Shown one piece after another: positions 3,997 through 18,619 of a stretch of 64,000 nucleotides of DNA. Numbering within the stretch: position 1 is the stretch's first letter; each line of letters begins with the position of its first letter. The DNA is from an uncultured Eubacteriales bacterium (lineage in GTDB: Bacteria; Bacillota; Clostridia; Oscillospirales; Oscillospiraceae): the NCBI GenBank assembly GCA_900543625.1, contig UQSF01000001.1, positions 79,916 to 143,915 of the forward strand, read 5' to 3'. The notes beneath the pieces are model-generated. The model saw only the letters and a program-made list of their open reading frames with translations, was not told the origin of the DNA and searched no databases. The position numbers and the translations under genes were made by a program.

Positions 3997-6738
3997 TTAT
4001 GCCTGCACCTGCACACGGCTGCCGCCGCTGCGGTCTTTGGTAACGATGATCTGCCGGTCGATGCGCTCCTTGAGCTCCGCAACGTGGGAGATGATGCCCA
4101 CGATCCGGCAGCCGCCCGACACGCCCACGAGCGCGGTCAGCGCCTGCTGCAGCGCCTCGCTGTCGAGCGAGCCGAAGCCCTCGTCGACGAACATCGCCTC
4201 AAGCTGTACGCCGCCGGCGCTCGACTGCACCTCGTCTGACAGACCGAGCGCCAGCGACAGGGAGGCGGCAAACGTCTCGCCGCCGGAGAGCGTCTTGACG
4301 CTGCGCGCCGTGCCGTTGTAGTGGTCGACGACCTCGAGCTCCAGCCCGGTCTGACTGCGATTGTCGCCCGCACGCTCGCAGCGGCGCAGCTCGTACTGCC
4401 CGCCGGACATGATGAGCAGGCGCGTGTTCGCGCGCCCGAGAATGCGGTCGAAATACGCGGCCTGCAAAAACGCCTCGAGCGTAATCTTCTCCTGTCCGGG
4501 GATGGCGCCGTTCGCGGTCGCCGCCAGCGCGTGCACCCATTGCCAGCGCTCGTGCGCAGCGTCGTATTCCTGCCGCTGCGTGTCGAGCTTGGCGCGCGCC
4601 GTGCGGTTTTGCTGCAGCCGCGTGTCGAGGGCGTTCATCTGCGCCTGCAGCGCGTCGATGCGCGCGCTGAGTGCATCACACTGCGCTTGCAGCGCGGCGA
4701 TGTCCGCCGCCGGCGCGGCGTCTGTCTGCGTGTGCAGCGTGGCGATCTTTCCGCGCAGCTGCGCGCACTTGGCCTGCGCCGCAGCGTGCTGCTTTTGCGC
4801 CGTGTCAAGTGCCTGCCGCAGCGCCTCATGCTGCGTCTGTGCCTGTGTGAGCGCGGCCTTTGCCGCATTGCTGTCCGCGTGCGGCAGCTCGGCTGCACGG
4901 TTGGCTGCGGCGGCATCCAGTTCGTCGCAGCGCGCGGCACGCGCGGCGCAGTCGGTCTCACCGGCCTGGATCGCATCGCGCTGCTGCTGCAGCTTCGTCT
5001 CCTGTTCAGACAGCCCGTCTGCAAGCGTCTGCAGCTTATCGAGCTGCGCTCTCTGCTCCGCCAGCCGTCCGGCACAGCCGCGCGCGTCCTGCGCGGCTTT
5101 TTCCTGCAGCGCGGGGAGCGTTTGCGCCAGCGTCTTCGGGTCGAGCGGCGGCGTCAGCGCCGCGCACGCCGTTTCCAGAGCTTCACGCACGGCCGTGAGC
5201 TGCCCGCGCAGAGCAGCGGCCTTCGCGCTGCGTTCCTCGGCGTCTCGCTGTGCCCGCTCGCTGTCGGCTTTTGCGCGCTTGCGCGCGGCAGCGTCCGGCG
5301 TTTGCTCCGGCGCGGCGGCAGGGCAGGGGTGTTCCGTCGCACCGCAGACCGGGCAGGGCTGCCCGGGCGTGAGCGTGCGTGCAAGGATGCCCGCCTGTGC
5401 GTCGAGATAGGCGCGGTCGAGCGCGCTGTAGTATGCCGATGCCGCCTGTGCCGCCCCGGCCGCCTGCGTGTACTTCTCCTGCGCGGCTTCGAGCTTTTTC
5501 TGCAGCTCGGCGCACCGTTTGCGCTGCCGGTCGAGTTCGGTCAGCGCCTTGCATCGCTGCTCGGCCGCCTTCTGCTCCTGCGCGGTCTGCTCGGCGGCCA
5601 CGGCCAGCTTCGGCTGCTCGGCGAGCTGCTCACGTGCGCTTTTGCACGTCTGCTCCGTCGCCTGTGCCTGTGCGCGCGCCTGCTCCAGCGCTGCGGTTTT
5701 CTCCTCCAGCGCTTCGCGCGCGGCCTTGGCCTGTGCGCGCTGCTTGTCCAGCTGCTCGTATTGGCCGAGCGCGTCCTGAAGCCGCGCGATGTCCTGCAGC
5801 AGCTGCTCCATGTCCGGCTGCTTCGCTTCGGCGGTGTCGAGCGCCGTCCGCGCAGACGCCTGCTCGTGCTGCGCCTGTTGGAGGTCCGCCTCCGCCGTTT
5901 TCAGCTCTGCGCGCGCCTGTTCGACCGCCTGCGCCTTGCCGAGATCGGTGAGCAGGCGTGCGTGCTGCGCCTTTGCCTGCTCGTGCTTTGTGCCCGTCTG
6001 CGTCCGGACGTCTGCGTCTGCATCGATCAGTGCGTCGAGCGCCGTCAGCAGCGCGTCCGTGTCCTCTGCGTCCGGCAGCGCATCCGGGTCGTCGCAGCCG
6101 ATGGCCTCCGCCGTCGAACGCAGTGCCGCGACCAGCTCGCCGCACCTCTTTTCGAGCGCGGCGGCATCGTCCTTGAGCCGGTTTTGCAGCGCCAGATACT
6201 TTCCCGTGCGGAAGATCTGGCGGAAGATCGCCTTGCGCTCGTCCGTCTGGGCGAGCAGCAGACGGCGAAACTCTCCCTGCGCGATCATGGCAATGCGCGA
6301 AAACTGCGCCCGGTCCACGCCGATGACCTCCGTCACGGCGGCGGTCACCTCGCGCGTTTTCGTGATCACGCGCCCGTCCGGCATCGTCAGCTCGGCGTCC
6401 GCCTTCTGCACGGTCGTGCCGGTGCCGCGGGTTTTCGGGCGCGTATATTCGGGGTTGCGGCGCACGGTGTAGCGCTCGCCGCCGTTTGCAAATGTCAGCT
6501 CCACGAACGTCGGCGTCTCGGGCTCGGCATACTTGCTGCGCAGCATGGAGCTCTCGCGGGTCTCGCCGCTCGCCTCGCCGTAGAGCGCGTAGGCGATCGC
6601 ATCAAAGATCGTCGTCTTTCCGGCGCCGGTGTCGCCGGTGATGAGGTAGAGCCCGGTCGTGCCGAGCGCGTCAAAGTCCACGGTCGTCTGTCCGGCATAC
6701 GGTCCGAAGGCGGACATGGTCAGCTTCAGCGGTCTCAT
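3997..6738 (-). CDS. sbcC: exonuclease SbcCD ATPase subunit (Rad50-like, long coiled coil)
   Basis: N-terminal Walker A GDTGAGKTT, ~600-aa Ala/Gln/Glu-rich coiled coil, C-terminal ABC signature and D-loop; 913 aa. Confidence 0.85.
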   Translation of the reverse strand: MRPLKLTMSAFGPYAGQTTVDFDALGTTGLYLITGDTGAGKTTIFDAIAYALYGEASGETRESSMLRSKYAEPETPTFVELTFANGGERYTVRRNPEYTRPKTRGTGTTVQKADAELTMPDGRVITKTREVTAAVTEVIGVDRAQFSRIAMIAQGEFRRLLLAQTDERKAIFRQIFRTGKYLALQNRLKDDAAALEKRCGELVAALRSTAEAIGCDDPDALPDAEDTDALLTALDALIDADADVRTQTGTKHEQAKAQHARLLTDLGKAQAVEQARAELKTAEADLQQAQHEQASARTALDTAEAKQPDMEQLLQDIARLQDALGQYEQLDKQRAQAKAAREALEEKTAALEQARAQAQATEQTCKSAREQLAEQPKLAVAAEQTAQEQKAAEQRCKALTELDRQRKRCAELQKKLEAAQEKYTQAAGAAQAASAYYSALDRAYLDAQAGILARTLTPGQPCPVCGATEHPCPAAAPEQTPDAAARKRAKADSERAQRDAEERSAKAAALRGQLTAVREALETACAALTPPLDPKTLAQTLPALQEKAAQDARGCAGRLAEQRAQLDKLQTLADGLSEQETKLQQQRDAIQAGETDCAARAARCDELDAAAANRAAELPHADSNAAKAALTQAQTQHEALRQALDTAQKQHAAAQAKCAQLRGKIATLHTQTDAAPAADIAALQAQCDALSARIDALQAQMNALDTRLQQNRTARAKLDTQRQEYDAAHERWQWVHALAATANGAIPGQEKITLEAFLQAAYFDRILGRANTRLLIMSGGQYELRRCERAGDNRSQTGLELEVVDHYNGTARSVKTLSGGETFAASLSLALGLSDEVQSSAGGVQLEAMFVDEGFGSLDSEALQQALTALVGVSGGCRIVGIISHVAELKERIDRQIIVTKDRSGGSRVQVQA

Positions 6739-7874
6739 CCCTGCACCTCCATGATCTGCTCCATGAGCTGCGCGATGTATTCACGCTGCACCTCGCTCAT
6801 GGGCTGGTGGTTCTGGCGCTGATACAGCGCCTCAAACAGCTCCAGCGGCGTGCGCCGCTCCGTCTCCGCCGGTACGGACATACCGCCGGCTGCGCGTGTG
6901 CGCGCGTTGTCGTAGTCAAGCGTCATCAGGTACGGGTAGATCGTGCGCAGGCGGCTCATGGCGTCAAACACGTCCTGCTCGTCCGTGAGGATCAGGTGCA
7001 GGTAGTCGCTGCGGTAGGTCGTGTGCTCGTAAAAGCTCCGCGCGGTCAGCTCGTCATAGCTCCCGCGGATCTCGCGCAGCTCCCGCAGCGGCGTGAGCGC
7101 GACGGTGCGCACCTGCACGTCGCCCTTTTCGCCCAGCGTCACGACGGTGACGGATTTGTGCTGCCTTGCCTCGGAAAACGAGTATTTGAGCGGCGAGCCG
7201 GCATAGCGGATCGTCTCGCGCCCGATGTGCTGCGCGCCGTGCAGGTGGCCGAGCGCCACGTAGTCAAACGGCGCAAAGACGCCGCTGTCGACATTGTCCG
7301 TCCCGCCGACGGACAGCTCTTCCGAGCCGCTGCGCGTGCCGCCGGTGACGAACTGGTGCGTCACGAGCACGTTGCGCGCGGCGGTGTCGATGGCCATGTG
7401 CGCGACGGCCTCGGCCATGGCATCGGTGTAGCTCTCAATGTCCGCGTCCGGAAACCAGCGGCGCACGTGCGCGGGCTTCACAAACGGCAGCAGCCAGACG
7501 TGCACCGGCCCGAACGCATCCTGCAGCGTGACCGGCGCGAGCGCGCCGTCATACACGGGCGAGATGTGGATGCCGCAGCTGTCCATGACGCGCCCGCCGA
7601 AGGCGAGCCGCTCCGGCGAGTCGTGGTTGCCGCTGATGAGCAGCACGGGCACGCCGCGTGCGCGCAGCTCGGTGAGAAAGCCGTCGAGCAGCTCGACCGC
7701 CTCGACCGACGGCACGGACTTGTCGTACACGTCGCCCGCGATGAGCACGCCGTCCGGCTGCTCGTCGTCCAGAATGGCGAGGATCTGCCGCAGGATGTGC
7801 GCCTGATCCTCAAGCATGGAAAATCCGTTGACACGCTTGCCGAGATGCAGGTCGGCGAGGTGGAGAAATTTCAT
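6735..7874 (-). CDS. sbcD: exonuclease SbcCD nuclease subunit (Mre11-family phosphoesterase)
   Basis: MKFLHLADLHLG and GNHD motifs; stop overlaps sbcC start. Confidence 0.85.
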   Translation of the reverse strand: MKFLHLADLHLGKRVNGFSMLEDQAHILRQILAILDDEQPDGVLIAGDVYDKSVPSVEAVELLDGFLTELRARGVPVLLISGNHDSPERLAFGGRVMDSCGIHISPVYDGALAPVTLQDAFGPVHVWLLPFVKPAHVRRWFPDADIESYTDAMAEAVAHMAIDTAARNVLVTHQFVTGGTRSGSEELSVGGTDNVDSGVFAPFDYVALGHLHGAQHIGRETIRYAGSPLKYSFSEARQHKSVTVVTLGEKGDVQVRTVALTPLRELREIRGSYDELTARSFYEHTTYRSDYLHLILTDEQDVFDAMSRLRTIYPYLMTLDYDNARTRAAGGMSVPAETERRTPLELFEALYQRQNHQPMSEVQREYIAQLMEQIMEVQG

Positions 7875-8015
7875 CGTATCGTTCCGCTCCTTGCGCGGCC
7901 GGGCCGCGGTGTGATGCTTCCATTATAATCCGAACCGCACCGCGGCACAACGGCGATTTTCGCGCCGGCGCGGCAAAAACCGGAAACCGTTCTGCGCCGG
8001 TCTCCGGTTTTTTGC

Positions 8016-9902
8016 TCACCAGCCGATCAGCCGCGCCAGCGCCGTGAACGCCGCGCACAGCGCCATGCCCAGCGCCGTCGGCAGCAGCGCCGCCAGCAGC
8101 GTCCATTTTGCGCTGCCGGTCTCGCGCCGGATCGTCCAGAGCGTCGTCGAGCACGGCCAGTGCAGCAGGAAAAACAGCACGGCGCTCACGGCGGTCGTCC
8201 ACGTCCAGCCGTTTGCGGTCAGCAGCGCGTGCATCTGCGCCAGCCCCGGCACGTCGCCCAGACTGCCCTGCGCCAGATAGCCCATCACGGCGATCGGCAG
8301 CACGATCTCGTTGGCCGGAAAGCCGAGCACGAACGCCAGCAGCAGCACGCCGTCCATACCCATTGCCTGCCCGAGCGGGTCGAGCGCAGCCGCGCAGCGC
8401 GTCAGCAGGCTCACACCGCCAGGGTGCACGTTTGCCAGCGCCCACAGAACCATGCCCGCCGGCGCTGCCACGGCGGCGGCGCGCCCGAGCACGAACAGCG
8501 TCCGGTCGAAAACGGAGCGCACGAGCACCTGACCGACCTGCGGCGCGCGGTACGGCGGCAGCTCCAGCACGAAGGCCGACGGCTTGCCGCGCAGCACGGT
8601 CGCGCTCAGCAGCCACGTTGCGCTGAACGTCATCCCCACGCACAGCGTGAGCGCCGCCGTGAGCAGCAGCGCGGCGGTGAGCGTGCTGCCGCTGAGGGAA
8701 AAGAACATGGTCATGAGCGCGATGAGCGCCGGAAAGCGGCCGTTGCACGGCATGAGGCTGTTGGTGAGCACGGCGAGCAGCCGTTCGCGCTCGGAGTCGA
8801 TGATCCGGCAGCCGACCACACCCGCCGCGTTGCAGCCGAGCCCCATGCACATCGTCAGCGCCTGCTTGCCGCAGGCGCGGCACACCTGAAACGGCCGGTC
8901 GAGGTTGTACGCCACGCGCGGCAGATATCCCGCGTCCTCGAGCAGCGTGAACAGCGGGAAAAAGATCGCCATCGGCGGCAGCATCACGGCCACGACCCAA
9001 GCCAGCGTCCGGAACATGCCGTCCACCAGCAGCCCCTGCAGCCATGGCGGTGCGTGCAGGAATATCAGCAGCGCGGAAAACCGTCCCTGCACCCAGCCAA
9101 AAAAATGCGCCAGCCACTCCGACGGCGCGTTTGCGCCCGCGATCGTCAGCCACAGCACGGCCGCCAGCCCCAGCAGCATGATGGGGTAGCCGGTCGCGCG
9201 GCTCGTGAGCAGCCGGTCGAGCCGCCGGTCACGCGCGGCATATTCCGGCGTCTCCCGCCGGACGGCTGCACGGCAGATGGCCTCTGCGCGGCGAACATCG
9301 TCCGCTGGGTCTCCGGCCTCCGGCGCACCGTCCGGGCGCGGCTGCGGCGCGGCCATAACGGCGTCGAGCGCATCGAGCAGGGCGCGGAGCGTTTTCTTTT
9401 TCCGCGCCGTTACGCCCACGACCGGCATACCGAGCTGCGCCTGCAGCGCGGGCAGGTCGATGTGGATGCGTTTGTGCCGCGCCTCGTCGAGCAGATTCAC
9501 GCACACGATCGTGTTCGGCGTTACGCTGTGCATCTGCAGCGCGAGCACGAGCGTGCGCTCGAGACACGTCGCGTCGCACACGACGACCACGGCGTCCGCT
9601 TTACCGCCGCGCACAAAGTCGCACGCGACAGCCTCCTCCGCCGAGTGCGGCTGCAGCGAGTAGGTGCCCGGGAGGTCGACGAGCAGATACTGCTCCCGCG
9701 CCGAGCGGCAGCGTCCGCACGCGCAGCCGACGGTTTTCCCGGCCCAGTTTCCGGTGTGCTGGCGCATCCCGGTCAGGGCGTTGAAGACGGTGCTCTTGCC
9801 GACGTTCGGGTTGCCTGCCAGCGCCACGATGCGCTCGCCCGCGCGCCGTGTGCCGCCGAATGCGGCCGCGTGCGTGCCGACAGAGCGGTGTGTCAGTCCC
9901 AT
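8016..9902 (-). CDS. feoB: ferrous iron transporter FeoB (G-domain plus membrane domain)
   Basis: GNPNVGKST G1 motif, long polytopic C-terminus; ATG at 9902 with AGGAGG RBS (track ORF begins at GTG 9908). Confidence 0.9.
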   Translation of the reverse strand: MGLTHRSVGTHAAAFGGTRRAGERIVALAGNPNVGKSTVFNALTGMRQHTGNWAGKTVGCACGRCRSAREQYLLVDLPGTYSLQPHSAEEAVACDFVRGGKADAVVVVCDATCLERTLVLALQMHSVTPNTIVCVNLLDEARHKRIHIDLPALQAQLGMPVVGVTARKKKTLRALLDALDAVMAAPQPRPDGAPEAGDPADDVRRAEAICRAAVRRETPEYAARDRRLDRLLTSRATGYPIMLLGLAAVLWLTIAGANAPSEWLAHFFGWVQGRFSALLIFLHAPPWLQGLLVDGMFRTLAWVVAVMLPPMAIFFPLFTLLEDAGYLPRVAYNLDRPFQVCRACGKQALTMCMGLGCNAAGVVGCRIIDSERERLLAVLTNSLMPCNGRFPALIALMTMFFSLSGSTLTAALLLTAALTLCVGMTFSATWLLSATVLRGKPSAFVLELPPYRAPQVGQVLVRSVFDRTLFVLGRAAAVAAPAGMVLWALANVHPGGVSLLTRCAAALDPLGQAMGMDGVLLLAFVLGFPANEIVLPIAVMGYLAQGSLGDVPGLAQMHALLTANGWTWTTAVSAVLFFLLHWPCSTTLWTIRRETGSAKWTLLAALLPTALGMALCAAFTALARLIGW

Positions 9903-9915
9903 GTGCACACCTCCT

Positions 9916-10152
9916 CTACAGCACGGCCACGCGGATGGCGCGGCAGTCGCACCGGCGCAGCGCGATCACACTGCCGCGGATGAGATAGGCGCTCGGGTCG
10001 CCCATGGGGCTGCGGCCGAGACAGACCACGCGCGTCTGCTCGATCAGCCCGAGGTCGCGCAGCCGCCGCTGCATCCCGTCGGGCGCGCACACACTGCGCA
10101 CGGTCGCGCTTTGACCGGGCTGCAGGTCGCTGAGCGTTTGGATTCGTGTCAT
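9916..10152 (-). CDS. feoA: ferrous iron transport protein FeoA
   Basis: 78-aa SH3-like FeoA fold pattern; immediately upstream of feoB. Confidence 0.8.
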   Translation of the reverse strand: MTRIQTLSDLQPGQSATVRSVCAPDGMQRRLRDLGLIEQTRVVCLGRSPMGDPSAYLIRGSVIALRRCDCRAIRVAVL

Positions 10153-10291
10153 TGCAGCTTCCCCCTCCTGCGGAGGCGAGCGCCTCCCATACCCATGGTA
10201 TTCGACCGGGCGCTTTTGCGTGCCGGAGGATTGCGCGCGGGCGCCGGGTGTAGTATACTACAGGAAAATACCTGTATCAGGAGTGACCGAT

Positions 10292-10633
10292 ATGGCAGAG
10301 AAGCCGAAAACGAATGTGGACAAATTCTTTGAGATCTATGATGCCGACCCCGCGCTGCAGGCGCGCGTGCAGCAGGCGATGGACAGCTATCCCGGCAGTC
10401 TGGAGATCCGCGATGTCATGACCGAGCACGTGCTGCTGCCGGTGGCGGAGGAGCTCGGCCTGCCGTTCACGCTCAAGGAGCTGCGCAATTATGAGCTGCT
10501 CAAGTGGGGACGCCAGCATCAGGACCGGGAGCTGACGGACGAGGACATGGCGGTCGACTATGAGACGACCTATTGGCTGCTCGATCGCGGCTGGTCGAAC
10601 GATGAGGCTGCCTTCTGTGGCGGCGAGCATTGA
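10292..10633 (+). CDS. Nif11-like domain protein (113 aa)
   Basis: ATG 10292 with AGGAG RBS; N-terminus VDKFFEIYDADPALQARVQQA matches Nif11/N11P leader-type domain pattern. Confidence 0.5.
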   Translation: MAEKPKTNVDKFFEIYDADPALQARVQQAMDSYPGSLEIRDVMTEHVLLPVAEELGLPFTLKELRNYELLKWGRQHQDRELTDEDMAVDYETTYWLLDRGWSNDEAAFCGGEH

Positions 10634-10640
10634 GGTATGC

Positions 10641-10675
10641 AAAAAAGGCGCGCACCGGCTGGCGCGCGCCTTTGC
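10641..10675. terminator. bidirectional terminator between convergent genes
   Basis: AAAAAAGGCGCGCACCGGCTGGCGCGCGCCTTTGCC hairpin flanked by A-run and T-run. Confidence 0.6.
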
Positions 10676-10691
10676 CATATCCAAATCTTCT

Positions 10692-11465
10692 TTACAGCCG
10701 GCTGCGGATGTCCTCCACATCGCGCTTCACGCTCTGAATGAACAGCGCGGCGTCGAGGCTGTAGGCCATGGCGTCAAAGCCCTTGCGGAAGCCGTCGACC
10801 ACGCCATCAGCCGTGCCGGTGAAGAACATGCAGTACTTTCCGGCTGCGCGGCAGGCGGCGACGATGCGCGTGACGGCCGCCTGAAACTCGGGCGCGTCGA
10901 ACTGTCCCGGCATGCCCATCGAGATCGACAGGTCGAACGGTCCGACGAAGATGCCGTCCACGCCGTCCACGGCGCAGATGTCCTCGATGATGGCGAGCGC
11001 TTCGGCGGTCTCGCACTGCGGGAAGAGCAGGGTCTCGCCGTTGAAGTGGCGCATGGTCTCCGGCACGGAGCCGAGCCCGTCAAAGCCCCAGCCGTCCTTG
11101 CGCGACGGGCAGAAGCCCCGCTGACCGATGGGGTAATATTTCGCGTAGTTCACGAGCTCCTGCACCTGCGCAAGCGTCTTGACGTTCGGCACGATCAGGC
11201 CCTGAACACCGACGTCGAGCAGCTTGAGCACGGCGGGGCGGCTGATCTCGCGCACGCGCGCGAGCGGGCAGATGCCGCTCAGCTCGGAGGCACGCACGAG
11301 CGCGGCGGTGGTCTCTGCCTCGATGGGGGAGTGCTCGTTGTCGATGATGGCAAAGTCGAGCCCCGTGCGGCCGAGACACTCCATAAGGCTCACGCTGGCT
11401 GTGTCAAAAAAGGTGCCGATAGGCCGCGCGCCGGCGGCGAGCTTCTGTTTGAGTGTGTTTTCCAT
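10692..11465 (-). CDS. HpcH/HpaI-family aldolase (2-keto-3-deoxy acid aldolase)
   Basis: 257 aa starting MENTLKQ, with AAGGAGGA RBS; family-typical GxxDxxxS and PxVE segments. Confidence 0.75.
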   Translation of the reverse strand: MENTLKQKLAAGARPIGTFFDTASVSLMECLGRTGLDFAIIDNEHSPIEAETTAALVRASELSGICPLARVREISRPAVLKLLDVGVQGLIVPNVKTLAQVQELVNYAKYYPIGQRGFCPSRKDGWGFDGLGSVPETMRHFNGETLLFPQCETAEALAIIEDICAVDGVDGIFVGPFDLSISMGMPGQFDAPEFQAAVTRIVAACRAAGKYCMFFTGTADGVVDGFRKGFDAMAYSLDAALFIQSVKRDVEDIRSRL

Positions 11466-11588
11466 GCGGATTCCTCCTTGTCTTGTCTCAATGGCCCGAT
11501 TATACGTGCATTTTGGCGGGATGGCAAGTGCCGCGCCGCGCACATTTGCGCCCGCCGCATAGGGAATAGCGGGACAGGAGGTGAGGGC

Positions 11589-11828
11589 ATGGAACTCGGC
11601 ATTGCATCCGTGGCGGCGATCACGGCCATTGCGTACCTGGTTGGCATGGCGGTCAAGACGACCGGTGCACGATTGGCTCAACACTGCCGCTGTCGGCATC
11701 GCGTCCGGCTGGGCCGCGACTGGCGTGCACCAGAGCGTGAAGCAGCTGACAAAACAGGAGCAGCTGCGCCAACACGCCGGGGGGTGCGCGCGTCGGCGTG
11801 TTGCTGCATGTGCGGATGTGTGTTATGA
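11589..11828 (+). pseudogene. possible frameshifted small two-TM membrane protein
   Basis: GGAGGTGAGGGC RBS + ATG; MELGIASVAAITAIAYLVGMAVKTTG is protein-like, then the frame turns Arg-rich while the +1 frame continues protein-like (LNTAAVGIASGWAATGVHQSVKQLTKQEQL). Confidence 0.25.
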
Positions 11829-11861
11829 TAGGGCCATCGAATGGATTTGGAGAGGTGACAA

Positions 11862-12353
11862 ATGCGCGTGGAAGAATACGATCTCTGCTTTTCGCCGCCG
11901 CTGCCGCCTACGGTCTGGGGCGAGCTCAGTCTTTGCTTTGATGTGGATTTCCCGATCGACACGGTTTCTTCCATCCTTGGTGTGCAGCCGACAGAGGCCA
12001 AACGGCAGCGGGCGTGCCGGTGGAATGCATATGCGGGCACGCAGAACCCGGGATACTGGACGATCACGTTTGACAAGACCGACACGTTTGATGGTGACGT
12101 TGTCCAGCGGACGATACATACTTTTATCGCAGAACACGAACGGGCGCTGCATCAGGTCCTGGAGCGGTTTCAGCCGTGCACGATGTTCTTGACGATTTAT
12201 GCCGCAGTGCATCAGGACGGAGAATATCCGTCCATTCGGCTAAACCCGTATTTTCTGCAGGATGCCTGCCGGTTTAGCGCGAGCGTGGATATCATTGTAG
12301 ATAATGATTATGTGCGCGCAGAGCCGGATGGCGGCAATCATGCGGAGCGGTGA
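11862..12353 (+). CDS. hypothetical protein, DUF4279-like
   Basis: 163-aa ORF with GGAGAGGTG RBS; overall pattern resembles DUF4279 family proteins. Confidence 0.45.
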   Translation: MRVEEYDLCFSPPLPPTVWGELSLCFDVDFPIDTVSSILGVQPTEAKRQRACRWNAYAGTQNPGYWTITFDKTDTFDGDVVQRTIHTFIAEHERALHQVLERFQPCTMFLTIYAAVHQDGEYPSIRLNPYFLQDACRFSASVDIIVDNDYVRAEPDGGNHAER

Positions 12354-12460
12354 AATAAACGATGGCCATGCGCCAGCACATTTTACAGTGAAGTGAATAG
12401 TGAAGAGTGAAGAACGAAAAAGTAAAAATCTGCAAGCGCGCTGCGATGCTTGCAGATTTT

Positions 12461-12479
12461 TGGTGCTCCAGCGGGGATT
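12461..12479 (-). repeat. partial duplicate of tRNA-Lys 3' end (acceptor and T-stem), possible att-site scar
   Basis: TTTTTGGTGCTCCAGCGGGGATT occurs at 12456-12479 and again as the true 3' end of tRNA-Lys at 12555-12578; each preceded by a terminator hairpin. Confidence 0.55.
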
Positions 12480-12559
12480 TCCCCTGACGGGGATAAACTT
12501 CGACTCCCCGGGAGCGACCAGAAAAAATATCCCCCGCCGAAAGGCGAGGGATATTTTTT

Positions 12560-12635
12560 TGGTGCTCCAGCGGGGATTCGAACCCCGGACACCCTGCTTA
12601 AAAGGCAGGTGCTCTGCCTACTGAGCTACTGGGGC
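12560..12635 (-). tRNA. tRNA-Lys (anticodon TTT)
   Basis: 76-nt cloverleaf by eye; anticodon loop CTTTTAA; GGTTCGAATCC T-loop; CCA encoded. Confidence 0.9.
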
Positions 12636-12669
12636 ATATCGGTGTGAAAAGTTATCCGCTATCCAAAAT

Positions 12670-12760
12670 ATCAGACGCACCCAACAAATACTCAGACGCG
12701 AATCCAGCGAGAAATCCGCACCCAACAGATACTCAGACGCGAATCCAGCGAAGCGATTCG
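12670..12760. repeat. tandem direct repeat (2 copies of ~34 bp, period 41 bp) in the tRNA operon spacer
   Basis: GCACCCAACAAATACTCAGACGCGAATCCAGCGA at 12677 and GCACCCAACAGATACTCAGACGCGAATCCAGCGA at 12718. Confidence 0.6.
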
Positions 12761-12839
12761 CGGCTGAAGAAGGAGCTGGTGTTCGGAAACGGATGCTTTC
12801 TGCTTGCAGGAAGCAGGAGTTGGAAGAACATCAGCGACG

Positions 12840-12911
12840 TGGCTGGGATGGCGGGATTCGAACCCACGATATCAGAGTCAAAGTCTGGTGTGTTACCATT
12901 ACACTACATCC
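12840..12911 (-). tRNA. tRNA-Gln (anticodon TTG)
   Basis: 72 nt; acceptor TGGGATG/CATCCCA; anticodon loop CTTTGAC; CCA encoded. Confidence 0.85.
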
Positions 12912-12964
12912 CAATATCGGGGCAAAAATCATCGGGGATCGGGATCACTCCCAATCCCCGATTT

Positions 12965-13041
12965 CGTGGGGTGGGTAAAGGGGTTCGAACCCTCGACACC
13001 CGGAACCACAATCCGGTGCTCTCCCGACTGAGCTATACCCA
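12965..13041 (-). tRNA. tRNA-His (anticodon GTG) with encoded G-1
   Basis: extra 5' G pairing with discriminator C73; anticodon loop TTGTGGT; CCA encoded. Confidence 0.9.
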
Positions 13042-13053
13042 CCATAGGTCTGA

Positions 13054-13130
<77 letters not shown>

Positions 13131-13163
13131 GCGCATGCAATATTTGGCTGCCCGCCCAGAAGG

Positions 13164-13237
13164 TATGGAGCGGGTGATGGGAATCGAACCCACGTATCCA
13201 GCTTGGAAGGCTGGTGTTCTACCATTGAACTACACCC
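13164..13237 (-). tRNA. tRNA-Gly (anticodon TCC)
   Basis: 74 nt; acceptor GCGGGTG/CACCCGC; anticodon loop CTTCCAA; CCA encoded. Confidence 0.9.
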
Positions 13238-13264
13238 GCAGAGGTCGTCCCACAATCAGCTTTA

Positions 13265-13294
13265 CGAATATATCATCTCCGGATGGGGTTTGTC
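13265..13294 (-). promoter_or_regulatory. candidate sigma-A promoter of the tRNA operon
   Basis: minus strand TTGACA-18 bp-TATATT about 30 bp upstream of tRNA-Gly. Confidence 0.5.
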
Positions 13295-13329
13295 AAGCAT
13301 AACCTTTCCAAAATTCGAAAATTTCGAAA

Positions 13330-13364
13330 AAAAGCGGGGACAGCGCCGGCTGTCCCCGTTTTTT
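13330..13364 (-). terminator. rho-independent terminator of the DUF1846 gene
   Basis: CGGGGACA-GCGCCGGC-TGTCCCCG hairpin followed by T-run on minus strand, just after the stop. Confidence 0.6.
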
Positions 13365-14849
13365 TCAGTGATGAAAGAGCTTTTTGGTCTGGAAATGCGG
13401 CTCAAACGTGATGTTGACCTCGAGCTTCTTGAACACATTCTCGTCCACGTGCGAGAGAATGACGGACGAGTGCGCCTCACAGTGCGCGAGCTTTGCCAGC
13501 TGCTGCATGGCGATCTCGGCGGTCGGGTCGCTTGCGGCGCAGATGCTCAGCGCGACGAGCACCTCGTCGGTGTGCAGGCGCGGGTTGTGATTGCCGAGGT
13601 GTTCGACCTTCAGATGCTGGATCGGCTCGATGATGTCGGGCGAGATGAGCGTGACGTCCTTCGGGATGCCGCCAAGGTACTTGAGCGCATTGAGCAGGCA
13701 GGCGGAGCTCGCGCCGAGCAGGGAGGAGGTCTTGCCGGTGATGATCGTGCCGTCGGGCATCTCGATAGCGACGGCGGGGGCACCGGTCTCCTCGGCGCGT
13801 TTGAGCGCCGCGCCCACGACCGGGCGGTCATCCGCCGTCAGACCGAGCTGGTTGAGCAGCAGCTCCTGCCGCTGCGTCTCGACCGGGGCGCACAGACCGC
13901 GCAGCTGCGCGCAGGCGGTGGCGTAGTAGCGGCGCAGAATTTCCTGTTTGGCGGCGGCGCAGCAGACATCGTCGTCGCTGATGCAGTAGCCCGCCATGTT
14001 CACGCCCATGTCCGTGGGGCTCTTATAGGGCGAGCTGCCGTAGATGCGCTGGAACATGGCGTTGAGCACGGGGAAGATCTCCACGTCACGGTTGTAGTTG
14101 ACGGTCGTCACGCCGTAGGCCTCGAGATGGAAGGGGTCGATCATGTTCACGTCGTCCAGATCGACGGTCGCGGCCTCGTAGGCGAGGTTCACGGGGTGGC
14201 GCAGCGGCAGATTCCAGATCGGGAACGTCTCGAACTTGGCGTAGCCCGCGCGCACGCCGCGCTTGTGCTCGTGGTAGAGCTGGCTCAGGCAGGTGGCCAT
14301 CTTGCCGCTGCCGGGGCCGGGCGCAGTCACGACAATGAGGCTGCGTGTCGTCTCGATGTAGTCGTTGCGGCCGAAGCCGTCGTCGCTGACGATGCGCGCG
14401 ATGTCGGACGGGTAGTCCGGGATGATGTAGTGGCGGTATACGCGGATGCCGAGCATCTCGAGCCGGTGCTGGAATTTCTCCGCCGCCGTCTGCCCGCGGT
14501 AGTGCGTGATGACGATGCTGCCGACATAGAGCCCGCAGCCCTGAAAGGCGTCGATCAGGCGCAGCGTGTCGTCGTCATAGGTGATGCCGAGGTCGCCGCG
14601 GCGCTTGCTGCGCTCGATGTCGTCGGCCGAGATGGCGATGATGATCTCCGCCTCGTCGCGCATCTCCATGAGCATGCGCACCTTGCTGTCCGGTGCAAAG
14701 CCCGGCAGCACGCGCGACGCGTGGTAGTCGTCGAAGAGCTTGCCGCCGAACTCCAGATACAGCTTGCCGCCGAACTGACTGATGCGCTCGCGGATCTTTT
14801 CCGACTGCATCCGGAGGTATTTATTGTTGTCAAAGCCGATTGCCTGCAT
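13365..14849 (-). CDS. DUF1846 (UPF0371) family protein
   Basis: 494 aa starting MQAIGFDNNKYL, with GAGGAGAGG RBS; large conserved Firmicutes protein of unknown function. Confidence 0.7.
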   Translation of the reverse strand: MQAIGFDNNKYLRMQSEKIRERISQFGGKLYLEFGGKLFDDYHASRVLPGFAPDSKVRMLMEMRDEAEIIIAISADDIERSKRRGDLGITYDDDTLRLIDAFQGCGLYVGSIVITHYRGQTAAEKFQHRLEMLGIRVYRHYIIPDYPSDIARIVSDDGFGRNDYIETTRSLIVVTAPGPGSGKMATCLSQLYHEHKRGVRAGYAKFETFPIWNLPLRHPVNLAYEAATVDLDDVNMIDPFHLEAYGVTTVNYNRDVEIFPVLNAMFQRIYGSSPYKSPTDMGVNMAGYCISDDDVCCAAAKQEILRRYYATACAQLRGLCAPVETQRQELLLNQLGLTADDRPVVGAALKRAEETGAPAVAIEMPDGTIITGKTSSLLGASSACLLNALKYLGGIPKDVTLISPDIIEPIQHLKVEHLGNHNPRLHTDEVLVALSICAASDPTAEIAMQQLAKLAHCEAHSSVILSHVDENVFKKLEVNITFEPHFQTKKLFHH

Positions 14850-15031
14850 AGATGTTCCTCTCCTCTGCTTCATGCTATCAAACAAACAACTTATTCTACA
14901 ACATTCGGCGCATTCCGGCAACGGGAAAATACCGAATCCGGTAAAATTTTATTGCCGCGCCGATTCGCCCTTTCTTTATTCATAAATATATGATATAATC
15001 CGGAATTACACTGGACAAGGAGTGTCAACAA

Positions 15032-17800
15032 ATGGGTTTTCTCAAAAAAATATTTGGTTCTCACAGCGACCATGAGCTCAAGCGGCTCTATCCGCTTGCT
15101 GATAAGATCGATGCCCTGTCGGACGAATACGCCGCGCTCACGGATGAGCAGCTGCGCGCCAAGACCGACGAATTCAAGCAGCGCTACGCCGAAGGCGCGT
15201 CGCTCGACGACCTGCTGCCGGAGGCGTTTGCCACGGCACGCGAGGCCTCGTGGCGCGTGCTCGGCATGAAGCCGTTTCGCGTGCAGCTCATCGGCGGCAT
15301 CGTGCTGCATCAGGGCCGCATCGCGGAGATGAAGACCGGCGAGGGCAAGACCCTCGTCGCCGTTCTGCCGGCCTACCTCAACGCGCTCACCGGTGAGGGC
15401 GTGCACATCGTCACCGTCAACGACTACCTCGCCCGCCGCGACAGTGAGTGGATGGGCAAGGTCTACCGCTTCCTCGGGCTGAGCGTCGGCCTGATCGTGC
15501 ACGATATGTCGAGCGCCGAGCGCCAGCAGGCGTATGCCGCCGACATCACCTACGGCACGAACAACGAGATGGGCTTTGACTACCTGCGTGACAACATGGC
15601 CATCTACAAATCCCAGATGGTGCAGCGCGGCCACGCGTTCGCCATCGTTGACGAGGTGGACTCCATCCTCATCGACGAGGCGCGCACGCCGCTCATCATC
15701 TCCGGTCAGGGTGATGAGAGCACCGACCTCTACCGTCAGGCGGAGAACTTTGCCGCCCGCCTCAAATGCAAGGCCTACGCCTCCATCGACGACAAGGAAG
15801 AGGAGGACGAGGATCTTGACGCCGACTATGTCGTCGACGAGAAGGCGCGCACCGCGACGCTCACCGCCCGCGGCATCGCCAAGGCGGAGGCGGCCTTCGG
15901 ACTGGAAAACCTCGCCGACATCGAAAATGCCACCCTCGTGCACCACATCGATCAGGCCATCCGCGCCCACGGCATCATGAAGCGCGACATTGACTACGTC
16001 GTCAAGGACGGCGAGGTCATCATCGTCGATGAATTCACTGGCCGCCTCATGCTCGGCCGCCGCTACAGCGACGGTCTGCATCAGGCCATCGAGGCCAAGG
16101 AGCACGTGCGTGTGCAGAGCGAGAACAAGACGCTCGCGACCATCACGTTCCAGAACTACTTCCGCCTCTATGGCAAGCTCTCCGGCATGACCGGCACGGC
16201 CATGACCGAGGAGGAGGAGTTTGCCGCCATCTACAATCTCGACATCATCGAGATCCCGACGAACAAGCCCGTCATCCGCATCGACAACCCCGACGTCGTG
16301 TATAAAAACGAGGCCGGCAAGCTGCGCGCCATCATCGAGCAGATCCGCGTCTGCCACGAGAAGGGGCAGCCGGTGCTGGTCGGTACGGTGTCGATCGAAA
16401 AGAGCGAGCAGCTGTCAAAGCTGCTGCGTAAGGCGGGCATCCCGCACAACGTCCTCAACGCCAAGCACCACGAGAAGGAGGCCGAGATCGTCGCGCAGGC
16501 CGGTAAGTTCGGCGCCGTCACGATCGCGACGAACATGGCCGGCCGCGGCACGGATATCATGCTCGGCGGCAACGCGGAGTATCTGGCCAAGGCGGACCTG
16601 CGCAAGGCGGGCTTCACCGAGGAGGTCATTGCCGAGGCCACCGGCTATGCCGAGACTGAGGATGAGGAGATCCTCAAGGCCCGCGCCCTGTTCGCCGAGC
16701 GCATGGCCGAGCACAAAAAGAGCATCGACGCCGAGGCCGACCGCGTGCGCGAGGCCGGCGGCCTGTATATCATCGGCACCGAGCGGCACGAGTCCCGCCG
16801 CATCGACAACCAGCTGCGCGGCCGTTCCGGCCGCCAGGGCGACCCCGGCGAGAGCCGCTTTTACATCGCGCTCACGGACGACGTCATGCGTCTGTTCGGC
16901 TCCGAGCGGATGCAGAGCATGATGGAGACGCTGCGCGTCGACGAGGACACGCCGCTCGACCACAAGATGCTCTCCAACGCCATCGAGCAGGCACAGCGCA
17001 CGGTCGAGAGCCGCAACTTCCAGGCACGTAAGAACGTGCTCGAATACGACGATGTCATGAACGTGCAGCGCAACGTCATCTATGAAGAGCGCCGCAAGGT
17101 GCTCGACGGCGAGGATCTGCAGGAGCATGTCCAGCACATGATCCGCACCGTTGTCACCGGCGAGATCGCCGCCGGCATGGCTGAGCATCACCCCGAAAAC
17201 GACAAGGATCTGCAGGAGATCCTTGCGCCCATGGCAAAGCTCTTCCCGTGCGAGCTGCACTACACGGCGGATGAGCTGCGCAAGCTCACGCCCGACGCGC
17301 TCGCGGATGCGGTCTATGACTGCGCCATGAAAGCCTATGCCGCGCGCGAGGAGACCTTCGGCCTGCAGCCGGACGGAACGCCGCTCATGCGCGAGCTTGA
17401 GCGCGTGGTCATGCTGCGCGTGGTCGACGAATACTGGATGGATCACCTCGAGGCCATGGATGACCTGCGTCAGGGCATCGGCCTGCGCGCCTACGGCAAC
17501 GTCAAACCGGTCGATGAGTATAAGCGCGCCGGCTTTGATATGTTCGATGAGATGGTCAACGGCATCCAGACCGAGACGGTGCGCCGCCTGTTCACGGTGC
17601 GCGTGCGCCGCGAGCAGAAGCTCGAGCGCAAGACCGTTGCCCGCGGCGCCGTGGCCAATGCCGGCGGGGACGACAGCGAGAAGAAGCGCCCCGTCCGCCG
17701 TACCAAGAAGCCCGGCCGCAACGACCCGTGCCCGTGCGGCAAGCTGCGTCCGAACGGTCTGCCCATGAAGTATAAAGACTGCTGCGGCAAGGATCAGTGA
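15032..17800 (+). CDS. secA: preprotein translocase ATPase SecA
   Basis: 922 aa; DEAD-like motor, C-terminal Zn-binding CPCG...C tail. Confidence 0.95.
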
Positions 17801-18603
17801 TGCACGCAGAGATCACATTCCCGCTGCACGCACAGCGCGGCGCAGCGTATCTGACCGCGCCGAACATCCCGGCGCGCCATGCCTTTTCCACCCGCCTCGG
17901 CGGCGTGAGCACCGGCGTGCTCGAGAGCCTGAATCTCAGCGTCCGGCGCGGCGACACGCCGGAAAACGTGCGCGAAAACTGGCGGCGGCTCGGCGCTGCC
18001 GCCGGGCTTGAGCTCACGCGCGTAGTGTATGCGCAGCAGGTCCACAGCGCGGACGTGCGCATCGCGCACGCTGCCGACGCGCAGCCGCCGGAGCATGAGC
18101 CGCGCTTTACCTGCGACGGTTTTGTCACGAACGAGCCGGACGTCACGCTTGCGGTTTTTATGGCCGACTGCCTGCCCGCGCTGCTGCACGATCCCGCTGC
18201 CGGGGTCATCGGCGCGGTGCACTGCGGCTGGCGCGGCTCGGTGGCGGATATCCTCGGCGCTGCCGTCGCGCAGATGTGCGCCCTCGGCGCGCACCCGGAG
18301 GACATCCGCGCCGCCATCGGTCCGGGCATCGGCGCCTGCTGCTTCGAGGTCGGACCTGAGGTCGTCGCCGCGGCGGAAGCCCTGCTGCATGAGCCGCTCG
18401 GCGCGCTCGTGCGCCCGCGCGCGGACGGCAAGGCCCTGCTCGATCTCAAGGGCGTCAACGCCCGGAGACTTGCGCAGCTCGGCGTCCCGGCGGAGCAGAT
18501 CGCCGTGTCGGACGCCTGCACCATGTGCCGGCCGGATGTGTTCTGGTCGCACCGCGCGACCGACGGCCGCCGCGGCGTGCAGGCCGCCGTCATCACCCTG
18601 TGA
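17797..18603 (+). CDS. pgeF: YfiH/PgeF family (DUF152) purine nucleoside phosphorylase / peptidoglycan editing factor
   Basis: 268 aa; characteristic HxxxxC...CGWRG-like pattern (AVHCGWRG); ATGA overlap with secA. Confidence 0.8.
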
Positions 18604-18619
18604 CCCAAGGGGGTAACCC

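What the first reader, a model, noticed from the sequence alone, without database searches (positions are those of the whole stretch)
12433..12635. Partial duplication of the tRNA-Lys 3' end with its upstream terminator: possible integrase attachment-site scar
The 23-bp TTTTTGGTGCTCCAGCGGGGATT (tRNA-Lys acceptor and T-stem 3' strand plus trailer) occurs at 12556-12578 as part of the gene. It occurs again 100 bp away at 12456-12479. Each is preceded by a different terminator hairpin (ATCTGCAAGCGCGCTGCGATGCTTGCAGAT and ATATCCCCCGCCGAAAGGCGAGGGATAT). A duplicated tRNA 3' end is the classic signature of site-specific integration of a phage or integrative element into a tRNA gene. Here only ~86 bp separates the repeats, consistent with a remnant after excision or deletion. 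The adjacent DUF4279 gene and a frameshifted small membrane ORF (11589-12353) could be leftover cargo.
Basis: partly seen in the sequence, partly recalled or inferred. Interest (0 to 1): 0.55.

Follow-up and report, generated by a model that had tools for sequence, protein, structure and literature searches.

The report
Repeated tRNA-Lys tail at phage site
The duplicated end of the tRNA-Lys gene is real and is one 99-bp unit of a variable tandem repeat lying beside a heavily used phage integration site. The unit co-evolves with the tRNA and resembles the E. coli tyrT/rtT repeats, so it is more than a simple excision scar.

Summary
The 23-nt exact repeat is confirmed at 12457-12479 and 12556-12578. 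tRNA-Lys(UUU) lies on the minus strand and is the last gene of a Gly-Arg-His-Gln-Lys operon.

The attachment-site idea is half right. In close relatives, three unrelated recombinases (two tyrosine integrases and one large serine recombinase) insert prophages or elements exactly in this tRNA 3' end. The neighbouring frameshifted ORF is a holin pseudogene, which points to a dead prophage end.

The 99 bp at 12461-12559 is not leftover cargo. It is one unit of a tandem array seen with 0, 1, 2 or 3 copies in syntenic contigs. Each unit holds:
- the last 19 nt of the tRNA (positions 58-76, including CCA);
- a small hairpin;
- a diverged inverted copy of the tRNA 3' end;
- an intrinsic terminator with compensatory changes, better formed in the tRNA sense.

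A homologous array exists in a second tRNA-Lys lineage. There both the direct and inverted copies match that lineage's own acceptor sequence.

The E. coli tyrT/tyrV 178-bp repeats (rtT RNA) share the same 19-nt boundary and also carry an inverted copy.

Best reading: an rtT-like tRNA-trailer repeat maintained by recombination at the att core. Its origin and any RNA function remain untested.

The parts
11589..11790 (+). Frameshifted holin pseudogene, probably the last gene of a decayed prophage
   Evidence: The frame-corrected 64-aa product hits PHROG holin families phrog_1129 (E=1e-7) and phrog_1299. The frame shift is visible. Intact phage 1 ends endolysin-holin-arm-attR. L154 keeps a 25-aa remnant of this ORF directly before a phage-1 arm.
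11862..12353 (+). DUF4279 gene, convergent with the tRNA operon; possible prophage moron
   Evidence: Pfam DUF4279 E=1.5e-6. GC3 is 0.64 against about 0.85-0.9 in neighbouring genes. In near-species relatives it is absent or replaced (L154, L157). No PHROG hit, so phage origin is only inferred.
12424..12461 (.). Distal terminator hairpin with A-run and T-run ('term1'), abutting the distal copy of the tRNA 3' end
   Evidence: 14-nt arms, 100% complementary (I2). Folded.
12461..12559 (-). One 99-bp repeat unit, the only one in this window
   Evidence: Syntenic contigs carry 0, 1, 2 or 3 units of 96-101 bp.
12461..12479 (-). c19: exact copy of tRNA-Lys positions 58-76 (AATCCCCGCTGGAGCACCA in tRNA sense)
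   Evidence: Identity with the tRNA stops inside the T-loop (GGGGATT|T in the unit, GGGGATT|CGAA in the gene).
12480..12498 (-). Spacer with small hairpin CCCC-NNNN-GGGG and ATAAAC
   Evidence: Two loop positions are the most variable columns of the unit, while the stems are invariant. Between lineages a C-G pair becomes G.U in tRNA sense.
12499..12521 (-). Diverged inverted copy of the tRNA-Lys 3' end, T-loop to CCA
   Evidence: Local alignment score 27 against a shuffle mean of 12.5; 0 of 2000 shuffles reach it. Inverted repeat I1. In lineage 2 it carries that lineage's acceptor bases.
12522..12559 (-). A-run, GC-rich hairpin and T-run: the intrinsic terminator directly after tRNA-Lys
   Evidence: Fold. 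Six of 11 stem pairs show changes on both sides across 41 distinct units. A U.G pair in tRNA sense (a C.A mismatch on the + strand) is kept in 40 of 41 units.
12560..12635 (-). tRNA-Lys(UUU); 12560-12586 is the 27-nt att core used by phage 1
   Evidence: ARAGORN and Rfam. Prophage junctions.
12636..13296 (-). Rest of the tRNA operon (Gln, His, Arg, Gly) and its promoter-like site at 13267-13296

Best explanation
The repeat marks one unit of an rtT-like tandem repeat in the trailer of the tRNA-Lys operon. The array lies on the distal flank of a hot phage attachment site.

In tRNA sense, each unit reads: intrinsic terminator, then a roughly 60-nt hairpin. The 5' strand of that hairpin is an inverted copy of the tRNA 3' end. 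Its 3' strand is an exact copy of tRNA positions 58-76, ending in CCA.

Shown:
- The array varies from 0 to 3 copies among near-identical genomes.
- Units within an array are more alike than units between arrays.
- The terminator stem is kept by compensatory changes and is better formed in the tRNA sense.
- A homologous array in a second tRNA-Lys lineage carries that lineage's own acceptor sequence in both the direct and the inverted copy.
- Phages integrate between the array and the tRNA body.

Inferred:
- Copy number changes, and the direct copy stays identical to the tRNA, through recombination or gene conversion among the 19-31-nt cores.
- The unit next to the tRNA terminates the tRNA operon. 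In lysogens, the unit next to the prophage junction would terminate the prophage int transcript.
- Read-through RNA folds into an acceptor/T-arm-like minihelix that could be processed like a tRNA, as E. coli rtT RNA is.
- Unit cores whose T-loop is destroyed behave as dead or weak att sites. This would explain why only decayed phage arms abut them.
For: Copy number and local duplication:
- Syntenic contigs carry 0, 1, 2 or 3 units.
- Units within an array differ by 6.4 positions on average, against 8.7 between arrays (permutation p=0.001).

Terminator:
- Six of 11 stem pairs are compensatory, and a U.G pair in tRNA sense is kept in 40 of 41 units.

Inverted copy and not foreign DNA:
- The inverted copy is significant.
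- The unit interior is unrelated to the phage arms.
- A native trailer with ATAAAC, inverted copy and terminator sits next to cca and murC-like genes, with no phage.

Second lineage:
- Its array has a lineage-matched direct copy, and identity again stops at GGGGATT|.
- Three pairs change on both sides between lineages, and the tRNA-sense fold is the better one.

E. coli parallel:
- The K-12 tyrV-distal 178-bp repeats start with the same 19 tRNA positions.
- They contain an inverted copy, and the annotated RttR 3' end is that CCA.

Distribution and att use:
- The unit is found in 4 species genomes, all uncultured Oscillospiraceae/Clostridiales, with one locus listed per genome.
- The att site is used by three recombinases.
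Against: - No expression data exist. Each unit begins with a strong terminator, so little RNA may be made.
- Within lineage 1, changes in the long helix mostly break pairs rather than compensate.
- The between-lineage covariation rests on only two lineage-2 units. Templated correction between inverted repeats could produce it without selection.
- Divergence between units (6-9%) is close to the divergence of the flanking genome sequence (93-97% identity), so there is no excess conservation.
- Other relatives with the same tRNA 3' end lack the unit (L170).
- There is no sequence similarity to E. coli rtT and no Rfam hit.
- The origin of the first direct copy is unexplained.
- The left neighbour of the array is a phage arm in several genomes (L154, L015, L038). 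That fits an integration history equally well.
Confidence: 0.5

Rival explanations
1. Integration scar. An integrative element once entered the tRNA-Lys T-loop, duplicated the 3' end and brought its own terminator. It then decayed to about 76 bp. The remnant was later amplified and shuffled by unequal crossing-over between the att cores.
For: - The site is a proven attB for three recombinases.
- The identity block starts inside the T-loop, as is typical of tRNA att sites (bioRxiv 10.1101/2020.11.02.365908; PMC3146451).
- Every phage arm next to the tRNA has the same grammar as the unit's right end: terminator, T-run, core.
- A decay series is visible at this locus: a roughly 35-kb prophage (L145+L096), a 1.4-kb remnant between core fragments (L015), and a 170-bp arm (L154).
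- A zero-unit allele exists.
- The unit's left part can be read as a 30-nt core with a mutated T-loop. That is the same extent as the phage-3 core.
Against: - The unit interior shows no similarity to the arms of the phages seen here.
- No element bounded by the unit's two halves was found in 8 viral scans, 1 genome scan and 1 metagenome scan.
- The same 'remnant', with the same end points, occurs in two tRNA-Lys lineages with lineage-specific direct and inverted copies.
- Its right half occurs as native trailer with no left core and no phage.
- Precise excision leaves no scar.
Confidence: 0.3
2. Neutral by-product of DNA structure. The terminator next to a quasi-palindromic T-arm grew into a long imperfect palindrome by template switching. 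Slippage between short repeats then made the tandem copies. Only the terminator has a function.
For: - There is a 40-nt-arm imperfect palindrome centred on the terminator loop (I1).
- The hypervariable centre of the 61-nt hairpin is the kind of pattern expected at a palindrome centre.
- There is no compensatory change within lineage 1.
- Another relative (L170) also has an inverted tRNA-like fragment after its terminator.
Against: - The exact 19-nt boundary is shared with E. coli tyrT.
- The G.U versus A.C asymmetries favour one transcribed strand.
- Clean junctions with phage arms at the unit cores point to recombination at the core rather than slippage.
Confidence: 0.12
3. Functional pseudo-att array. 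The unit cores act as secondary or dead attachment sites that capture prophages in a form that cannot excise, or that buffer the tRNA against faulty excision.
For: - Arms of phage 1 and phage 3 and a third arm type abut a unit core exactly where they normally abut the tRNA, but only as decayed remnants (L154, L015, L038 and context B).
- All 15 phage-1 arms in the listed viral loci abut the intact tRNA.
- No phage-1 arm joined to a unit core (with an intact phage or otherwise) was found in viral contigs.
Against: - The same pattern arises from unequal exchange followed by decay.
- There is no test of integrase activity on the unit core.
- The sample of viral contigs is biased toward intact phages.
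Confidence: 0.08

Closest known systems
E. coli tyrT/tyrV operon distal 178-bp repeats encoding rtT RNA (RttR)
   Same: - Tandem units lie directly distal to the last tRNA of an operon.
- Each unit starts with an exact copy of the same 19 tRNA positions (58-76, with CCA). Identity breaks at the same T-loop position: GGATT|CGAA in the gene, GGATT|other in the unit.
- Each unit also holds an inverted copy able to pair with that 3' end.
- The annotated RttR 3' end is that CCA.
[quoted passage not shown]
   Different: - The unit here is 99 bp, not 178 bp.
- There is no sequence similarity and no Rfam hit.
- Every unit here carries its own intrinsic terminator.
- No Tpr-like ORF is evident.
- The host is a Firmicute.
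- The array flanks a demonstrated phage attB and varies in copy number in the population.
- Transcription and processing are unknown here.
Tandem genomic islands and remnants bounded by direct repeats of a tRNA/tmRNA 3' end (e.g. Dehalococcoides ssrA islands; cis-mobilizable elements and accretion)
   Same: - There are repeated copies of the 3' end starting in the T-loop downstream of the gene.
- Several elements and remnants lie in series.
- A serine recombinase gene runs into the repeat. This is seen in L156 here and for dsiB in PMC3146451.
   Different: - Here most intervals between repeats are only 76-80 bp, non-coding and homologous to each other.
- They contain an inverted copy of the core and co-vary with the tRNA between lineages.
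- They are not independent islands.
Bidirectional intrinsic terminators at the end of tRNA operons
   Same: An A-run, GC-rich hairpin and T-run lie directly after the CCA. The stem is kept by compensatory changes.
   Different: A terminator alone does not explain the direct and inverted copies of the tRNA 3' end, or the tandem repetition.

Membership tests
att-site direct repeat of an integrative element in a tRNA gene | Direct repeat identical to the 3' part of the tRNA gene, starting in or near the T-loop | tested here: met
   A 19-nt copy of positions 58-76 plus T-run, in two exact copies.
att-site direct repeat of an integrative element in a tRNA gene | Occupied and empty sites in related genomes, with junctions exactly at the repeat and a recombinase gene beside one junction | tested here: met
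   - Prophage with a 366-aa tyrosine integrase in L004, L005, L023 and L024.
- Both junctions lie on single IMG/VR contigs.
- Empty sites occur in the window and in L001.
-.
att-site direct repeat of an integrative element in a tRNA gene | DNA between the two repeats in this window is (a remnant of) the mobile element | tested here: not met
   - It is 76 bp and non-coding, with no similarity to the phage arms.
- Its right half is native trailer elsewhere.
- It is a homologous repeat family in two lineages.
- An unknown element cannot be excluded.
att-site direct repeat of an integrative element in a tRNA gene | Recombinase gene near the repeats in this window | tested here: inconclusive
   Flanking genes 6735-20194 are HpcH aldolase, FeoAB, SbcCD, DUF1846, SecA and others, with no recombinase. 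Ten further ORFs gave no Pfam hit and look like wrong-strand calls. The rest of the 64-kb window was not scanned.
E. coli tyrT-distal repeats / rtT RNA | Tandem units distal to the last tRNA, each carrying the tRNA's last 19 nt with CCA | tested here: met
   for this family. for E. coli.
E. coli tyrT-distal repeats / rtT RNA | Sequence and structure homology to the Rfam RtT family | tested here: not met
   No RtT match at E<=10 in 11000-14500.
E. coli tyrT-distal repeats / rtT RNA | Unit is transcribed with the operon and processed to a stable RNA ending at the CCA | not testable with these tools
   Only indirect support: the tRNA-sense fold has z=-4.1, and there are three between-lineage compensatory pairs.
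tRNA gene or pseudogene | Recognised by tRNA detectors | tested here: not met
   ARAGORN finds only the five operon tRNAs. There is no Rfam tRNA hit at 12461-12521 on either strand at E<=10.
Dispersed repeat (REP/MITE-like) | Many copies scattered over the genome | tested here: not met
   There is one locus in the window. The unit-internal pattern is found in only 4 species genomes, with one locus listed per genome.
Intrinsic terminator | GC-rich hairpin followed by a U-run, with the stem kept by compensatory change | tested here: met
   The simple scan misses it, probably because the A-run pairs with the T-run.

The most novel reading that the evidence does not exclude
Gut Oscillospiraceae may encode a conserved family of tRNA-3'-end 'minihelix' units in tandem in the tRNA-Lys operon trailer. 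These units co-evolve with the tRNA and may be processed like tRNAs, as E. coli rtT RNA is. At the DNA level they would also serve as dead att cores that immobilise prophages. If so, the long-unexplained E. coli tyrT/rtT repeats would belong to a widespread class tied to phage attachment sites.
Probability: 0.2. Interest if true: 0.6.

Novelty: new variant of a known kind. Interest (0 to 1): 0.4.

Why it matters
The E. coli tyrT/rtT repeats have remained an isolated curiosity of unclear origin and function. Here is a second, unrelated example in uncultured gut Firmicutes with the same anatomy: the same 19 tRNA positions, an inverted partner and tandem copies. This one sits against a live phage attachment site and has natural copy-number and lineage variation.

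That makes two questions testable:
- Are such repeats made by recombination at att cores?
- Do they yield tRNA-like RNAs or trap prophages?

For genome annotation, it warns that a duplicated tRNA 3' end need not bound an island.

Tried and rejected
- **The phage carries the unit in its attP arm, so each faulty excision leaves one unit.** Rejected. The tRNA-side arms of phage 1 and phage 3 have their own terminators and no unit, and show no similarity to it.
- **Dispersed repeat or MITE.** Rejected.
- **tRNA pseudogene.** No detector support.
- **Long helix under selection within lineage 1.** No covariation.
- **Integrase elsewhere in the window.** None found among the proteins scanned. The low-GC3 'ORFs' at 20-37 kb gave no Pfam hits and are wrong-strand calls over ribosomal-protein genes (gene calls of L011).
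- **Free-phage attP contig (arm-core-int side).** Not found.
- **Phage-1 arm joined to a unit core.** Not found in viral contigs.
- **Partial cores with the same boundary in another tRNA-Lys lineage, by pattern.** Only jumbo-phage tRNA genes came back.
- **Look-up with the 518-aa DUF1846 ORF.** Failed because the called gene is 494 aa.
- **Bösl & Kersten 1991 (PMC329039).** Not held, so the E. coli locus was checked directly instead.
- **Reverse-orientation integration through the palindromic TTCGAA of the T-loop.** Considered on paper. Dropped because it would destroy the tRNA and does not give the observed order of parts.

Full report
**Observation.** TTTTTGGTGCTCCAGCGGGGATT occurs exactly twice, at 12457-12479 and 12556-12578. 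Shuffles give none even with 3 mismatches allowed.
- tRNA-Lys(UUU) is at 12560-12635 on the minus strand. It is the last gene of a Gly-Arg-His-Gln-Lys operon with a promoter-like site at 13267-13296.
- In tRNA sense the repeat is AATCCCCGCTGGAGCACCA, which is positions 58-76 with the encoded CCA, followed by A's.
Because the gene is on the minus strand, they are downstream terminators.

**The site is a real, busy attachment site.**
- Contigs encoding an identical DUF4279 protein fall into empty sites and occupied sites.
- In L004/L023 and L005/L024 a prophage follows the junction TGGTGCTCCAGCGGGGATTCGAACCCC|AATAGAATC. A 366-aa tyrosine integrase gene ends about 20 nt away. Cargo includes Abi_2 or Fic, Mrr-type nucleases, cI-like HTH, a replication protein and RecU.
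- The junction sequence finds 11 IMG/VR contigs.
- The tRNA-side junction shows the phage arm ...GAAACCATTGAAA...TTTCAATGGTTTCCTTT|core|tRNA body, preceded by endolysin and holin.
- Three contigs hold both junctions: L034+L069, L032+L112 and L145+L096. The last one also includes DUF4279 and three units.
- A second phage has a 338-aa tyrosine integrase with only a 43-aa local match to the first. It has a 30-nt core (L150+L098).
- A large serine recombinase element joins at TTTTTTGGTGC| (L156).

**The neighbours.**
- The frameshifted ORF at about 11589-11790 is a holin pseudogene (PHROG E=1e-7).
- L154, a near-species genome, keeps a 25-aa remnant of it directly before 170 bp of the phage-1 arm.
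- DUF4279 has atypical GC3 and is replaced by other remnants in genomes 93-97% identical in the flanks.
- The interval between the HpcH aldolase gene and the repeat is therefore a graveyard of prophage ends.

**The 99 bp is a repeat unit, not cargo.**
- The core pattern occurs 2, 3 or 4 times per syntenic contig, spaced 96-99 bp. That corresponds to 1, 2 or 3 units.
- One metagenome contig has none: the distal hairpin (12424-12461) directly abuts the tRNA.
- Fifty loci gave 28 distinct arrays and 41 distinct units of 96-101 bp.
- On the + strand a unit reads: the 19-nt direct copy; TCCCC-NNNN-GGGG-ATAAAC; an inverted diverged copy of the tRNA 3' end (score 27 against a null of 12.5); then A-run, hairpin and T-run.
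- Units in one array are more alike than units in different arrays (6.4 against 8.7 differences, p=0.001). Local duplication or homogenisation therefore occurs.
- Arrays whose units differ from one another (L004, L005, L145) argue against assembly artefacts.
- The unit-internal pattern is found in 4 species genomes, all uncultured Oscillospiraceae/Clostridiales, with one locus listed per genome.

**What is constrained.**
- Across the 41 units, 6 of 11 terminator pairs change on both sides. A U.G pair in tRNA sense, which is C.A on the + strand, is kept in 40 of 41 units. The terminator therefore serves the tRNA-sense transcript.
- The long helix between the direct and inverted copies shows no compensation within this lineage.

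**Not phage-derived.**
- The unit interior is unrelated to the phage arms.
- A virome scaffold that is really bacterial chromosome (MurC-like ligase and CCA-adding enzyme genes) carries another tRNA-Lys lineage.
- Its native trailer is ATAAAC, inverted copy and terminator. Nineteen nt are identical to the window's unit. It has no direct copy and no phage.

**A second lineage has the whole array.**
- L175 lies on the same contig as the tRNA-side junction L077.
- It has two units with an exact copy of that lineage's 3' end, TGGTGCCTCGTCGGGGATT. Identity again stops at GGGGATT|.
- It has a homologous spacer, an inverted copy carrying that lineage's acceptor bases and its own terminators. A prophage follows.
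- In tRNA sense the same fold is predicted. Three pairs change on both sides between lineages: UA to CG, CG to UA, and CG to GU.
- The tRNA-sense strand folds better than the + strand.
- In lineage 2 the helix is 6 bp, a 2-nt bulge and 6 bp with a free ACCA end. This resembles an acceptor/T-arm minihelix.

**Closest known.**
- In E. coli K-12, the three 178-bp repeats distal to tyrV each start with TGGTGGTGGGGGAAGGATT. These are the same 19 positions, and identity breaks at the same T-loop base.
- Each repeat contains an inverted partner: 10 nt perfect, 22 nt at 86%.
- The annotated RttR RNA ends at that CCA. PMC3318445 links rttR to one repeat unit.
- There is no sequence homology and no Rfam hit.
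- Tandem islands bounded by 3'-end repeats starting in the T-loop are known (PMC3146451). T-loop sublocation preference is described in bioRxiv 10.1101/2020.11.02.365908.

**Interpretation.**
- I favour an rtT-like trailer repeat kept in step with the tRNA by recombination at the shared core (confidence 0.5).
- The terminator function is shown. The RNA and dead-att roles are inferred.
- The scar model (0.3) remains viable for the origin of the first direct copy. Phage arms abut unit cores in L154, L015 and L038, and a decay series from 35 kb to 170 bp exists at this locus. However, no parent element was found in any scan.
- Relatives with the same tRNA end can lack the unit (L170) or hold two full tRNA-Lys copies (L171).

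**Limits.**
- All comparative data come from metagenome assemblies.
- Lineage 2 rests on three loci.
- There are no expression data.

Noticed in passing
window 12676-12751: A 41-bp tandem repeat (CGCACCCAACARATACTCAGACGCGAATCCAGCGA...) lies in the tRNA-Gln to tRNA-Lys spacer, with an inverted partner at 12755-12767. There are two copies here, four in L155 and about one in L154, so this is a second copy-number-variable repeat inside the operon.
   Followed up: partly
window 12560-12635: tRNA-Lys(UUU) has a C3.A70 mismatch in the acceptor stem. The mismatch is kept in a relative with a compensated 7:66 pair (L120). The second lineage has U3.G70 at the same position.
   Followed up: partly
window 12931-12962: A 14-bp terminator-like hairpin with a T-run lies inside the operon, between tRNA-His and tRNA-Gln, on the minus strand.
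   Followed up: no
L010/L029 3500-12700: In one otherwise syntenic contig the operon's first tRNA is replaced by a different tRNA. An integrative mobilizable element follows it: a 397-aa integrase, HTH_17, ParB, relaxase, NikA-like and TnpV.
   Followed up: no
L002, L004, L005, L007, L008 (about 3478-4769 in L002): A DUF4236 gene plus an RHH_1 gene are present between the 113-aa ORF and the HpcH aldolase gene in some strains. They are absent from the window and L001. This is a small presence/absence cassette.
   Followed up: no
L156 2048-3862: The large serine recombinase ORF reads across the att junction into the repeat units. A similar overlap is described for dsiB and the ssrA repeat in Dehalococcoides (PMC3146451).
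   Followed up: partly
L171 6627-7844: A relative with 82% DUF1846 identity has two complete tRNA-Lys(UUU) genes about 1.1 kb apart, with a DUF1846 C-terminal fragment between them. The operon is inverted relative to the full DUF1846 gene.
   Followed up: no
L170 5700-5760: Another relative has, after its own terminator, an inverted tRNA-Lys-like T-arm and variable-loop fragment (GATGGATTTGAACCCACGGACACC). It has no unit.
   Followed up: no
L163 6832-7030: A tRNA gene on a 166-kb IMG/VR viral contig is interrupted by an insertion of about 130 bp near the anticodon region. Four otherwise near-identical contigs lack the insertion.
   Followed up: no
L159 (E. coli NC_000913 1287361-1287395): The spacer between tyrV and tyrT also contains a copy of the 19-nt tRNA-Tyr 3' end followed by unit-like sequence (89% over 35 nt).
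   Followed up: no
L008/L027 6068-12089: One contig shows a truncated DUF1846 gene, then Tex and a beta-lactamase-fold gene, then a second full DUF1846 gene. This may be a rearrangement or a chimeric assembly.
   Followed up: no
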